From the NCBI GenBank assembly GCA_022763825.1, contig JALEQX010000066.1, forward strand, positions 12,888 through 76,887: a stretch of DNA of 64,000 nt. Reading direction: 5' to 3'. Made by a program: the position numbers and the translations under genes. The number at the start of each line of letters is the position of its first letter. The first letter of the stretch is position 1. This document shows, in pieces, positions 11,976-12,883 of this stretch. This DNA is from Oscillospiraceae bacterium (lineage in GTDB: Bacteria; Bacillota; Clostridia; Oscillospirales; Acutalibacteraceae). The notes beneath the pieces were generated by a model. That model was not told the origin of the DNA. It was given only the letters and a program-made list of their open reading frames with translations, and did not search any database.

Positions 11976-12095
11976 TTACTTCTCGAATCCCCAAGTCTTA
12001 TCGAATCCGCTAACGAAATCCATGATCTTTGCATATAAATCAGCAACGAATCCCATGATATCAGCGAAAATCTCTGCATAAACGTCAAATTTCAT
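11976..12095 (-). CDS. Small acidic amphipathic-helix peptide A1 (39 aa), no recognised family
   Basis: Hand translation: MKFDVYAEIFADIMGFVADLYAKIMDFVSGFDKTWGFEK. SD GGAAAGAGGTG lies 8 nt before the ATG. 29/39 aa are identical to A2, and many differences are synonymous. Confidence 0.75.
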   Translation of the reverse strand: MKFDVYAEIFADIMGFVADLYAKIMDFVSGFDKTWGFEK

Positions 12096-12145
12096 TTTTC
12101 GGCACCTCTTTCCAAAATAAAGTATTCAGGTTAATGAGTTTAAAA

Positions 12146-12268
12146 TTAACCCTCAAGCTTCTTAGAAGTCTTCTCAAGCCAAACCTTGATCTGAGCAAAC
12201 ATCTTCATGAGTTTCTCAAACCACTCTGAAAGGTAAGCCATGAGAGCAGCAAAAGTATCTACTGACAT
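12146..12268 (-). CDS. Small weakly basic amphipathic-helix peptide B1 (40 aa), no recognised family
   Basis: Hand translation: MSVDTFAALMAYLSEWFEKLMKMFAQIKVWLEKTSKKLEG. SD GGGAGGTG lies 6 nt before the ATG. 30/39 aa are identical to B2. Confidence 0.75.
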   Translation of the reverse strand: MSVDTFAALMAYLSEWFEKLMKMFAQIKVWLEKTSKKLEG

Positions 12269-12325
12269 TGATGTCACCTCCCTATCCTCATCTCAAAAAG
12301 TGAACATATCACCTTTATATTCATA

Positions 12326-12353
12326 ATTATAACATAAATAATTCCTGTGTCAA
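12326..12353 (-). promoter_or_regulatory. Near-consensus extended -10 sigmaA promoter of cassette 1
   Basis: Minus strand reads TTGACA-16 nt-(TGt)TATAAT, about 55 nt upstream of the B1 ATG. Confidence 0.75.
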
Positions 12354-12537
12354 TTTACAATAAGGGGGGTTTTGTCTATATAATATAAAAACTTTACATA
12401 CAAAACGGCGTATTTTCGTTGTTTAGTATACCCACAATTATACACATGTCGATTATCATTTATTTTTTATTCACAGTTTATCCCTGCCGGAAGTCGGAAT
12501 ATGAATTATATATATAACTCGATCACTAAAAACAGGC

Positions 12538-12570
12538 AAAAAAAAGACGAACCGTAAAACGGTTCGTCTC
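12538..12570 (-). terminator. Rho-independent terminator of small-peptide cassette 2
   Basis: Hairpin gacgaaccg-taaaa-cggttcgtc followed by T8-9 on the - strand, 19 nt past the A2 stop. Confidence 0.85.
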
Positions 12571-12588
12571 AGAAATAATCAACTTTAA

Positions 12589-12708
12589 TTACTCCTCGAA
12601 GCCCCAATGTTTCTCAAAACCAGCTGCGAACTCCTTAATCTTTGCGTATAAATCAGCTACGAAAGCTGCGATATCAGCAAAAATCTCTGCAAAAACGTCA
12701 AATTTCAT
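12589..12708 (-). CDS. Small acidic amphipathic-helix peptide A2 (39 aa), paralogue of A1
   Basis: Hand translation: MKFDVFAEIFADIAAFVADLYAKIKEFAAGFEKHWGFEE. The RBS region ggaaagaggtgccgaaaaATG is identical to that of A1. Confidence 0.75.
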   Translation of the reverse strand: MKFDVFAEIFADIAAFVADLYAKIKEFAAGFEKHWGFEE

Positions 12709-12763
12709 TTTTCGGCACCTCTTTCCAAATAATATAAATCACGCTAATTTAATCAGAATTAAA

Positions 12764-12883
12764 TTAAGCAAGCTTCTCAGAAGTCTTCTCAAGCCAAGCC
12801 TTGATCTGAGCGAACATCTTCATAAGCTTCTCAAACCATACTGAAAGGTACTCCATGAGTTTACCAAAAGTCTCAACCTTCAT
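12764..12883 (-). CDS. Small weakly basic amphipathic-helix peptide B2 (39 aa), paralogue of B1
   Basis: Hand translation: MKVETFGKLMEYLSVWFEKLMKMFAQIKAWLEKTSEKLA. SD GAGGTG lies 9 nt before the ATG. Confidence 0.75.
   Translation of the reverse strand: MKVETFGKLMEYLSVWFEKLMKMFAQIKAWLEKTSEKLA

What the first reader, a model, noticed from the sequence alone, without database searches (positions are those of the whole stretch)
11976..12883. Paralogue comparison indicates purifying selection, a shared heptad register and complementary charge
By hand alignment, A1/A2 are 29/39 identical and B1/B2 are 30/39 identical. In the conserved cores most nucleotide differences are synonymous. In the B core WFEKLMKMFAQIK(V/A)WLEKTS there are aaa/aag, ctc/ctt and ttt/ttc against one V/A change. 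In A there are ttc/ttt, gtt/gta, tat/tac and atc/att. That pattern is expected for real coding sequence. In all four peptides, hydrophobic or aromatic residues occupy positions 3, 6, 10, 13, 17, 20, 24, 27 and 31. This is a 3-4 heptad spacing running the whole length, so A and B share one register. Net charge by hand count is about -3/-4 for A1/A2 and +1/+2 for B1/B2. Together this suggests an A:B hetero-oligomeric helical bundle or coiled coil, rather than two unrelated peptides.
Basis: seen in the sequence. Interest (0 to 1): 0.7.

Follow-up and report, generated by a model that had tools for sequence, protein, structure and literature searches.

The report
Paired tiny helical proteins, function unknown
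Two tandem copies of a two-gene unit encode 39-40-residue single-helix proteins that are real, strongly expressed and always paired in a few gut Clostridia; they match no described family, and their function and physical pairing are still untested.

Summary
Four minus-strand ORFs (B2, A2, B1, A1) are 29/39 (A) and 30/39 (B) identical. Their differences are biased towards synonymous changes, and all nine heptad positions are large hydrophobic residues.

Evidence from relatives confirms real coding sequence:
- 34 unique homologous genes vary mostly at third codon positions (median dN/dS 0.20 for A, 0.34 for B).
- Frames and GAGGTG ribosome sites are intact in every unit.
- Codon usage resembles that of a highly expressed gene.

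Each unit has an extended -10 sigma-A-type promoter, a 5' stem-loop and a terminator. AlphaFold2 predicts one long helix per peptide. Hydrophobic periodicity is about 3.5 residues across the family.

B is followed by A in all 20 units examined, in 1-3 tandem copies per locus, and their lengths co-vary. This supports a hetero-oligomeric bundle indirectly, but I could not model the complex.

Charge complementarity is not conserved: it holds in 7 of 20 units, and both peptides are non-positive in the other 13.

No Pfam, NCBIfam, PHROG, PDB, Rfam or literature match exists. An exhaustive search of 1.84 billion proteins found about ten clusters. Three of four distant lineages place the pair just after sipL-spoIVA. 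Function is unknown.

The parts
12764..12883 (-). B2 coding sequence (39 aa, MKVETFGKLMEYLSVWFEKLMKMFAQIKAWLEKTSEKLA), first gene of the upstream unit
   Evidence: ORF with a GAGGTG ribosome site. Identical protein in L016-L020. B-profile hit E 2.4e-28.
12589..12708 (-). A2 coding sequence (39 aa, MKFDVFAEIFADIAAFVADLYAKIKEFAAGFEKHWGFEE), second gene of the upstream unit, 55 nt after B2
   Evidence: A-profile hit E 1.9e-22. Homologues P0008 and P0011.
12146..12268 (-). B1 coding sequence (40 aa from the ATG, MSVDTFAALMAYLSEWFEKLMKMFAQIKVWLEKTSKKLEG), first gene of the downstream unit
   Evidence: GGAGGTG lies 6 nt before the ATG. Homologues all start MSVDTF. AlphaFold2 predicts a helix at residues 3-39, pLDDT 88.
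11976..12095 (-). A1 coding sequence (39 aa, MKFDVYAEIFADIMGFVADLYAKIMDFVSGFDKTWGFEK), second gene of the downstream unit, 50 nt after B1
   Evidence: AlphaFold2 predicts a helix at residues 3-31, then a non-helical tail that holds conserved motif residues; pLDDT 80 overall and 58 for residues 31-39.
12941..12969 (-). Promoter-like site of the upstream unit: TTGCAT, 17 nt, TGcTATTAT (extended -10); the -10 ends 57 nt before the B2 start
   Evidence: The TTG and the TGcTATTAT are invariant across five loci in alignment A8. A similar site sits 45-73 nt (usually 54-59) before the start in all 18 units scanned.
12913..12930 (-). 5' UTR stem-loop of the upstream unit (GGAAAC-aataag-GTTTCC)
   Evidence: All 18 units have a predicted stem-loop near the predicted 5' end of the 5' UTR, with a different sequence in each lineage. 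L008 carries an A-to-G change that keeps a G-U pair.
12544..12570 (-). Intrinsic terminator of the upstream unit (12-bp stem followed by a T run)
12326..12353 (-). Promoter-like site of the downstream unit: TTGACA, 16 nt, TGtTATAAT. It matches the consensus 12/12 and has an extended -10.
   Evidence: Conserved in L001, L005, L008 and L014.
12296..12316 (-). 5' UTR stem-loop of the downstream unit (AAAGGTGA-tatgt-TCACTTTT)
11927..11950 (.). Bidirectional intrinsic terminator shared by the downstream unit and the convergent AMP-ligase gene
12970..13482 (-). Conserved non-coding spacer between proS and the upstream unit. It holds further promoter-like sites, a candidate ~70-nt transcript and TGTT-type direct repeats. 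It is probably regulatory, and its membership of the module is inferred.
   Evidence: The full proS-to-B2 spacer (12884-13482) shows 82% mean column identity across five loci. Synonymous identity in proS between the same species is only about 50%.

Best explanation
The region holds two tandem copies of a bicistronic module. Each copy has this order: sigma-A-type promoter with an extended -10, 5' stem-loop, B gene, 50-55 nt spacer, A gene, intrinsic terminator.

Shown:
- Both genes are translated, judged from frame conservation, synonymous bias, consensus ribosome sites and codon usage typical of a highly expressed gene.
- Each product is predicted to be one continuous amphipathic alpha-helix with a 3.5-residue hydrophobic repeat.
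- B is followed by A in every unit examined.

Inferred mechanism:
- B and A are made in roughly equal amounts from one stable mRNA and pack side by side into a hetero-oligomeric helical bundle of at least four helices.
- B has a classical a/d/g hydrophobic core face and a polar, salt-bridged outer face, so it would keep the complex soluble.
- A has a much broader hydrophobic face (a, d, e, g) with a narrow acidic stripe. Its conserved, predicted non-helical aromatic-acidic tail motif (G-F/W-x-K-x-[WYF]-[DG]-F-E) would stay free to bind a partner or a membrane interface.

The biological role is not established. My best guess is an abundant, regulated intracellular or membrane-peripheral structural or adaptor complex of spore-forming gut Clostridia, possibly linked to envelope or spore-coat morphogenesis.
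For: Coding and selection:
- Paralogue dN/dS is 0.15 (A) and 0.31 (B). Across 18 and 16 unique genes, third-position variation dominates and median dN/dS is 0.20 and 0.34.
- The three B copies in L029 differ only by synonymous changes.
- Codon-usage log-likelihood ratio (GAPDH-like against bulk) is +0.18 per codon, above all 39 other genes of the window, whose maximum is 0.004.

Expression signals:
-.

Structure:
- AlphaFold2 predicts single helices.
- The periodicity peak is 3.43-3.60 residues in all 19 family members.
- Heptad table: A has a, d, e, g hydrophobic; B has a, d, g hydrophobic.

Pairing:
- B-then-A order with a 45-72 nt gap in every unit examined (20 compared), in a close clade and four distant lineages, as 1-3 tandem copies.
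- B length tracks A length: Spearman 0.82 over 20 units, and 0.81 over 6 lineages for A helix length, P = 0.053.

Not RNA-only:
- No Rfam match.
Against:
- Charge complementarity is not conserved.
- There are no e/g salt-bridge pairs to specify a heterodimer.
- L026 carries one A-like gene (55 aa) with its own promoter and no B partner, so A may act alone.
- The peptides lack signal peptides, but export by an unlinked transporter cannot be excluded.
- The promoters look vegetative (sigma-A type), which sits badly with a purely sporulation-specific role.
- The window lineage has the pair next to proS, not spoIVA.
Confidence: 0.5

Rival explanations
1. The peptides are exported, membrane-active molecules. 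They would be made without a leader and released by an unlinked transporter or by lysis. They would act as surfactants, cytolysins or antibacterial agents, as phenol-soluble modulins or leaderless two-peptide bacteriocins do.
For: - Small size, no signal peptide, an amphipathic helix rich in aromatic residues, and tandem paralogues.
- Very strong expression signals.
- Fast protein evolution: dN 0.22-0.29 against 0.012 for the neighbouring proS.
- A paralogues diversify while B stays constant in L029.
- Conserved direct repeats upstream could be a response-regulator site.
Against: - A is acidic in all 20 units and B is mostly neutral or acidic. The known antibacterial examples are strongly cationic (my own knowledge).
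- No transporter or immunity gene is conserved within 5 kb in any of six contexts.
- The locus sits at a fixed place in the core genome between housekeeping genes, not in a variable island.
- The 3.5-residue period points to helix-helix packing rather than a flat membrane-surface helix.
- No match to PSM, delta-lysin or bacteriocin models in Pfam or NCBIfam.
Confidence: 0.2
2. A and B do not interact. Each forms its own homo-oligomer or acts alone, and the two are co-transcribed only because they work in the same process.
For: - A lone A-like gene with its own promoter exists in L026.
- In L029 B is constant while A diverges, so the pair does not obviously co-evolve residue by residue.
- Both peptides have self-complementary heptad faces.
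Against: - The B-A order is invariable, the spacing is short and the ribosome sites are matched in all 20 units.
- The lengths of B and A co-vary.
Confidence: 0.15
3. The pair is a sporulation accessory. It would be a small membrane or curvature adaptor, or an assembly factor, for the SpoIVA/SipL coat basement layer, functionally comparable to SpoVM.
For: - In three of four distant lineages the pair or pairs lie directly downstream of sipL-spoIVA, on the same strand. In L029 they lie between spoIVA and dpaB-dpaA.
- That adjacency persists although the SipL proteins are only 34-55% identical and the downstream neighbours differ.
Against: - The promoters are sigma-A-like with an extended -10, not recognisable sigma-E, -K, -F or -G types (promoter consensus sequences from my own knowledge).
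- The window lineage and L026 have the pair elsewhere.
- SpoIVA is 74-86% identical among these lineages, so the shared position may simply be inherited.
- The peptides are acidic, whereas SpoVM is basic (my own knowledge), and there is no Pfam match to it.
Confidence: 0.12
4. Only the RNA is functional (a small RNA or a type I toxin-antitoxin-like transcript), and the ORFs are incidental.
For: Short, strongly transcribed, terminator-bounded units with structured 5' ends.
Against: - Third-position bias, dN/dS well below 1 and no frameshift or stop codon in 34 unique genes.
- Consensus ribosome sites in all units.
- Translational codon bias.
- Protein-level homologues at 24-49% identity keep the ORF.
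- No Rfam match.
- No transmembrane segment, and no ORF on the opposite strand is conserved.
Confidence: 0.03

Closest known systems
Leaderless two-peptide bacteriocins (enterocin L50A/L50B, MR10A/B, DD14; reviewed in PMC6131525 and PMC10376788)
   Same: Two adjacent genes for peptides of about 40 residues. They have no leader and are helical and rich in aromatic residues.
   Different: - Those peptides are strongly cationic and similar to each other. Their genes sit beside transport and immunity genes.
- Here A is always acidic and B is near neutral or acidic.
- A and B are not demonstrably homologous (hhalign probability 32%).
- No transporter or immunity gene is linked, the locus is in the core chromosome, and there is no profile match.
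Staphylococcal phenol-soluble modulins, especially the roughly 44-residue acidic beta type (features from my own knowledge)
   Same: Tandem paralogous genes for leaderless amphipathic helical peptides. Very high expression. The beta type is also acidic and of similar length.
   Different: - No sequence match to the PSM or delta-lysin Pfam models.
- A different phylogenetic group.
- A strict two-type (B plus A) pairing.
- One continuous helix with a 3.5-residue repeat rather than a 3.6-residue surface-active pattern.
- Export is unknown.
WXG100 (EsxA/EsxB) pairs of type VII secretion (features from my own knowledge)
   Same: Bicistronic pairs of small all-helical proteins that form heteromeric helical bundles.
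   Different: - WXG100 proteins are helical hairpins of about 100 residues with a W-x-G turn.
- Here each gene gives one helix of about 30-37 residues.
- There is no Pfam match and no secretion genes nearby.
SpoVM, the 26-residue amphipathic helix that anchors SpoIVA to the forespore membrane (PMC5607322, PMC6436350)
   Same: A very small amphipathic helix. The pair is next to spoIVA in three lineages.
   Different: - SpoVM is basic, a single gene and shorter.
- The peptides here are acidic, paired, carry sigma-A-like promoters and have no sequence match.

Membership tests
Leaderless two-peptide bacteriocins (L50/DD14 type) | Two adjacent genes for peptides of about 40 residues, made without a leader | tested here: met
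   B and A are 39-40 aa and start at a Met directly after a ribosome site. No double-glycine or Sec leader is visible in their sequences.
Leaderless two-peptide bacteriocins (L50/DD14 type) | Strongly cationic peptides | tested here: not met
   A has net charge -1 to -7 in all 20 units; B has -3 to +2.
Leaderless two-peptide bacteriocins (L50/DD14 type) | Linked ABC transporter and immunity genes | tested here: not met
   None is conserved within 5 kb in six contexts. The neighbours are proS, an AMP-ligase gene, mntP, spoIVA, dpaAB, an FAD oxidoreductase gene and an M23 peptidase gene.
Leaderless two-peptide bacteriocins (L50/DD14 type) | Sequence similarity to known members | tested here: not met
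   No Pfam or NCBIfam match even at E <= 10.
Phenol-soluble modulins / delta-lysin | Match to the family profiles held in Pfam | tested here: not met
   No such match in Pfam at E <= 10.
Phenol-soluble modulins / delta-lysin | Secreted through a dedicated ABC exporter and under quorum-sensing control | not testable with these tools
   No expression or secretion data are available. Conserved upstream direct repeats exist, but their binding protein is unknown.
WXG100 (PF06013) | Helix-turn-helix of about 100 residues with a W-x-G motif | tested here: not met
   Single helices of 29 and 37 residues. No Pfam match.
Type I toxin-antitoxin toxins | A hydrophobic transmembrane peptide with an overlapping antisense RNA | tested here: not met
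   An acidic residue occurs every 3-4 positions, so there is no transmembrane stretch. The only two plus-strand promoter-like sites near the four genes are weak, 9 of 12 matches.
SpoVM | A basic amphipathic helix of about 26 residues, with a sequence match | tested here: not met
   No SpoVM family appears among the Pfam matches. The peptides are acidic and 35-53 aa.
Canonical heterodimeric coiled coil | Heptad a/d core over the whole helix | tested here: met
   All nine a/d positions are large hydrophobic residues in the four peptides. The family-wide period is about 3.5 residues.
Canonical heterodimeric coiled coil | Opposite charges at e/g positions that specify the hetero-pair | tested here: not met
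   A has e = A, M/A, Y, V/A, W and g = K, I, F, K, G, F, and its acidic residues sit at b/c. Net-charge complementarity holds in only 7 of 20 units.
Canonical heterodimeric coiled coil | Physical A:B association | not testable with these tools

The most novel reading that the evidence does not exclude
B and A make up a previously unrecognised, very abundant two-subunit helical-bundle protein specific to spore-forming gut Clostridia of the Ruminococcaceae type. The bundle would work with SpoIVA/SipL at the forespore or cell envelope, with a constant B scaffold pairing with diversifying A subunits whose conserved aromatic-acidic tail is the docking element. Expression would be set by a dedicated regulator that binds the conserved TGTTGC direct repeats.
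Probability: 0.12. Interest if true: 0.75.

Novelty: new variant of a known kind. Interest (0 to 1): 0.5.

Why it matters
Genes of about 40 codons are routinely missed or left unnamed. Here the sequence evidence shows translation, strong expression and regulation of a conserved two-gene module in uncultured gut Clostridia, with no known relative.

If the two helices form a complex, this would be a minimal natural heteromeric bundle built from separate single-helix genes. That is of interest for protein design.

The module is also a candidate new player in the envelope or spore biology of abundant gut anaerobes. If the peptides are instead exported, they would be an unusual anionic class of leaderless peptides.

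Either way, the finding yields concrete, inexpensive experiments with synthetic peptides.

Tried and rejected
- **Family libraries.** Pfam, NCBIfam and PHROGs gave no match better than E about 0.03.
- **phiKZ gp86.** The B profile matched one helix of this phage protein in the PDB search (8y6v_G, residues 126-150, E 0.005). Pfam gave E 0.095 and tblastn against phages E = 3. I treat it as a chance likeness between amphipathic helices.
- **A profile against PDB.** Nothing.
- **Rfam.** Nothing except terminator-like noise.
- **Genome scan hit in Anaeromicropila herbilytica (L007).** Rejected: it is an out-of-frame ORF inside an acetyltransferase gene.
- **A and B as distant paralogues.** Inconclusive. 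hhalign gives 32% probability with a 4-residue offset. Each profile's best non-self hits in the window are the other family, at E 0.009-0.11.
- **Complex prediction.** Structure search with a single helix would be uninformative, so I did not run it.
- **Wider collections.** The viral contig scan and two JGI metagenome scans added no new lineage. The plasmid search found nothing significant.
- **Literature.** Searches by peptide motifs and by topic found no description.
- **AMP-ligase, carrier protein and HAD neighbours as modifying enzymes.** Rejected as required partners: the ligase gene is absent in L014/L015 and all three are absent in the distant lineages.
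Full report
**What is there.**
- The interval 11976-12883 holds four small minus-strand ORFs. In the order they are transcribed they are B2 (12764-12883, 39 aa), A2 (12589-12708, 39 aa), B1 (12146-12268, 40 aa) and A1 (11976-12095, 39 aa).
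- They form two bicistronic units. Each gene has a GAGGTG-type ribosome site, and A starts 55 or 50 nt after B.
- The downstream unit has a perfect sigma-A-type promoter with an extended -10 (TTGACA, 16 nt, TGtTATAAT; 12353-12326). Its terminator at 11950-11927 is shared with the convergent AMP-ligase gene.
- The upstream unit has TTGCAT, 17 nt, TGcTATTAT (12969-12941) and a terminator at 12570-12544.
- The units lie between proS (13483-14922) and the AMP-ligase gene (10116-11855). The surroundings are ordinary chromosome: the cell-division and cell-wall gene cluster, ftsZ, mntP, ffh, mutS2, gap and der.

**Checking the observation.**
- Nei-Gojobori dN/dS is 0.15 for A1/A2 and 0.31 for B1/B2. 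Synonymous changes are in excess with P = 6e-5 and 0.023.
- Residue shuffles place large hydrophobic residues at all nine positions with P <= 0.00035. Power at a 3.5-residue period has P = 0.001-0.008.

**Are these real genes?**
- Homologues are few but clear. The word-index searches gave 11 B-type and 10 A-type sequences, all 39-45 aa and all unnamed.
- The window is a close relative of uncultured Ruminococcaceae UMGS555. In that genome (L004) B1 and A1 are identical to the window's, while B2 and A2 differ.
- Syntenic loci from related species keep the same four genes between proS and the next gene.
- Across 18 unique A and 16 unique B nucleotide sequences, variable sites by codon position are 21/20/37 and 19/20/33. 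Median pairwise dN/dS is 0.20 and 0.34. There are no frameshifts or stop codons, and the length differences are whole codons at the C-terminus.
- Between the window and L001, the peptides have dN 0.22-0.29 at dS 0.77-1.18. The neighbouring proS has dN 0.012 at dS 0.70. The peptides are constrained, but their protein sequence evolves about 20 times faster.
- Codon usage of the four genes follows that of gap, my proxy for a highly expressed gene. GCT is 68% of Ala codons (bulk 19%), AAG 76% of Lys (41%) and GAG 100% of Glu (49%).
- The per-codon log-likelihood ratio is +0.18, above all 39 other genes of the window, whose maximum is 0.004.
- Together with the absence of any Rfam match, this rules out an RNA-only reading for practical purposes.

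**A wider family.**
- An exhaustive HMMER search of 1.84 billion representative proteins with the A profile found 12 hits at E <= 0.001. Two long proteins (212 and 1360 aa) match only over short stretches. The other ten clusters are 35-53 aa.
- These share a C-terminal motif, F-x-x-G-[FW]-x-K-x-[YWF]-[DG]-F-E. In the 23-sequence alignment F27 and G30 are invariant and F31, K33 and E38 are at least 90% conserved.
- In each distant lineage whose DNA I could read, a B-like gene precedes the A-like gene by 45-72 nt.
- L023 and L032 each have one pair. L029-L031 have three tandem pairs. L026-L028 have two pairs plus one lone A-like gene.
- B is followed by A in all 20 units compared.
- In L029 the three B copies differ only by 2-5 synonymous third-position changes, while the three A copies differ at 9-16 residues.
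- B length tracks A length: Spearman 0.82 over 20 units. For A helix length over six lineages it is 0.81, P = 0.053.

**Structure.**
- AlphaFold2 on the family alignments predicts a single helix for A1 (residues 3-31, pLDDT 80), followed by a lower-confidence non-helical tail that holds the conserved motif. For B1 it predicts one helix from 3 to 39 (pLDDT 88).
- The hydrophobicity spectrum peaks at 3.43-3.60 residues in all 19 family members tested and at exactly 3.50 in 13. A 3.5-residue repeat is what helix-helix packing gives. A helix lying flat on a membrane gives 3.6 (my own knowledge).
- In the heptad frame, A has hydrophobic residues at a, d, e and g, with acidic residues at b/c. B has hydrophobic residues at a, d and g, with a polar remainder containing i-to-i+4 Glu-Lys pairs.
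- From this I infer bundles of more than two helices, with B supplying most of the polar surface.

- Coding sequence, purifying selection and the shared register are supported.
- Complementary charge is not a family property. B positive with A negative occurs in 7 of 20 units, and both are non-positive in 13. The two charges correlate weakly and positively (Spearman +0.34). A's charges are not at e/g positions.
- The hetero-oligomer is the most economical reading of the invariable pairing and matched lengths.
- Whether A and B are ancient paralogues is unresolved.

**Expression design and regulation.**
- All 18 units scanned have a sigma-A-type promoter with TGn before the -10. Its -10 ends 45-73 nt (usually 54-59) before the start codon.
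- All 18 have a predicted stem-loop near the predicted 5' end of the 5' UTR. Its sequence differs between lineages (GGAAAC/GTTTCC, AAAGGTGA/TCACTTTT, GGTAAGC/GCTTACC and others).
- From my own knowledge of mRNA decay in Firmicutes, such 5' stem-loops stabilise transcripts.
- The 600 nt between proS and B2 are 82% identical across species whose synonymous proS identity is about 50%.
- In distant lineages a TGTTGC-N5-TGTTGM direct repeat lies 109-150 nt before each B start. The module therefore looks strongly expressed but regulated, and the regulator is unknown.

**Function.**
- No library or paper gives a name. No homologue turned up in the phage, plasmid or viral-contig searches run, each with one peptide type.
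- The only recurring genomic clue is position. In three of four distant lineages the pairs follow sipL-spoIVA, and in L029 they are also next to dpaB-dpaA. SpoIVA and SipL are the clostridial coat-morphogenesis pair (PMC6436350).
- Several points weigh against a sporulation role. The promoters look vegetative. SpoIVA is 74-86% identical among these lineages, so the synteny may simply be inherited. Two lineages, including the window's, keep the pair elsewhere.
- An exported membrane-active role, like phenol-soluble modulins or leaderless bacteriocins, fits the size, tandem paralogues and fast evolution. It is disfavoured by the acidic charge, the lack of linked transport or immunity genes, the core-genome position and the 3.5-residue repeat.
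- I therefore commit to an abundant heteromeric helical bundle acting inside the cell or at the inner face of the envelope (confidence 0.5). The exported-peptide reading gets 0.2, independent action of A and B 0.15, and a specific SpoIVA/SipL link 0.12.

**Novelty and score.**
- This is a real, well-defined family of paired single-helix proteins. It has no detectable relative among described families and no literature.
- It resembles known two-peptide systems in outline but fails their defining tests. I rate it a new variant of a known kind.
- It is a good lead for small-protein biology, but without a function it is not yet very surprising. Interest is 0.5.

Noticed in passing
window 13240-13347 (- strand): A promoter-like site (TTGACA, 17 nt, TATCAT; 13347-13319) is followed about 50 nt later by a terminator hairpin (13265-13249) with compensatory changes between species. 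This suggests a conserved ~70-nt small RNA or leader between proS and the peptide units. The 37-aa ORF at 13194-13307 is not kept in L001.
   Followed up: partly
window 13098-13129 and 13074-13083 (- strand); L023, L026, L029, L032 at 109-150 nt before each B start: TGTT-type direct repeats occur about 11 bp apart: ATTGTTGTTTAAATATTTCTGAATTGTTAACA in the window, and TGTTGC-N5-TGTTGM in distant lineages. In the window, TGTCGGATAA lies about 14 nt downstream of the repeat block. It resembles the Spo0A-box consensus as I recall it (TGTCGAA) with one mismatch. These could be response-regulator sites or the -35 of a second upstream promoter.
   Followed up: partly
L029 4342-5641 (also L030, L031): Three tandem B-A pairs lie between spoIVA and dpaB-dpaA. 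The three B proteins are identical and differ only at 2-5 synonymous sites, whereas the A proteins differ at 9-16 residues.
   Followed up: yes
L026 5425-5592 (also L027, L028): A lone A-like gene (55 aa, net charge -5) has its own promoter and ribosome site but no B partner. It lies between two complete pairs.
   Followed up: no
L005 2263-2938; L008 3294-3930; L009/L010; L021 700-1337: In some relatives toxin-antitoxin genes lie between A1 and the AMP-ligase gene: RelB or RelB/ParE in L008-L010 and L021, and in L005 two small ORFs (132 and 94 aa) that I read as HigB/HigA-like without a profile search. In L014 and L015 the ligase gene is missing and mntP follows A1 directly. The downstream flank is therefore a hot spot for insertion and deletion.
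   Followed up: partly
window 12350-12445 (- strand): A 31-aa ORF (MYNCGYTKQRKYAVLYVKFLYYIDKTPLIVN) stays open in L001, L005 and L035. It has no ribosome site and overlaps conserved promoter-like DNA (TCGACA, 16 nt, TATACT at 12452-12425). It is probably regulatory DNA rather than a gene.
   Followed up: no
L006 / L001 (CAVGCY010000026.1): The record is titled 'Bacteroidaceae bacterium'. Its proS product is 97% identical to the window's, and the window's closest genome match (L004) is titled Ruminococcaceae. The taxon label looks wrong.
   Followed up: no
window 12179-12250 (B1 residues 7-30): The core of B (WFEKLMKMFAQIK) resembles one helix of phage phiKZ vertex protein gp86 (8y6v_G residues 126-150, TWFEKLMELFAKLIRW). 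The profile E-value is 0.005, but tblastn gives E = 3, so it is probably chance.
   Followed up: yes
window 14923-15850 and 10116-11855: A small carrier-protein gene (PP-binding, called in L001 and not confirmed in the window) and a HAD hydrolase gene lie upstream of proS. An AMP-dependent ligase gene converges on the peptide units. The set looks like an acyl or aminoacyl activation system but is not conserved with the peptides.
   Followed up: partly
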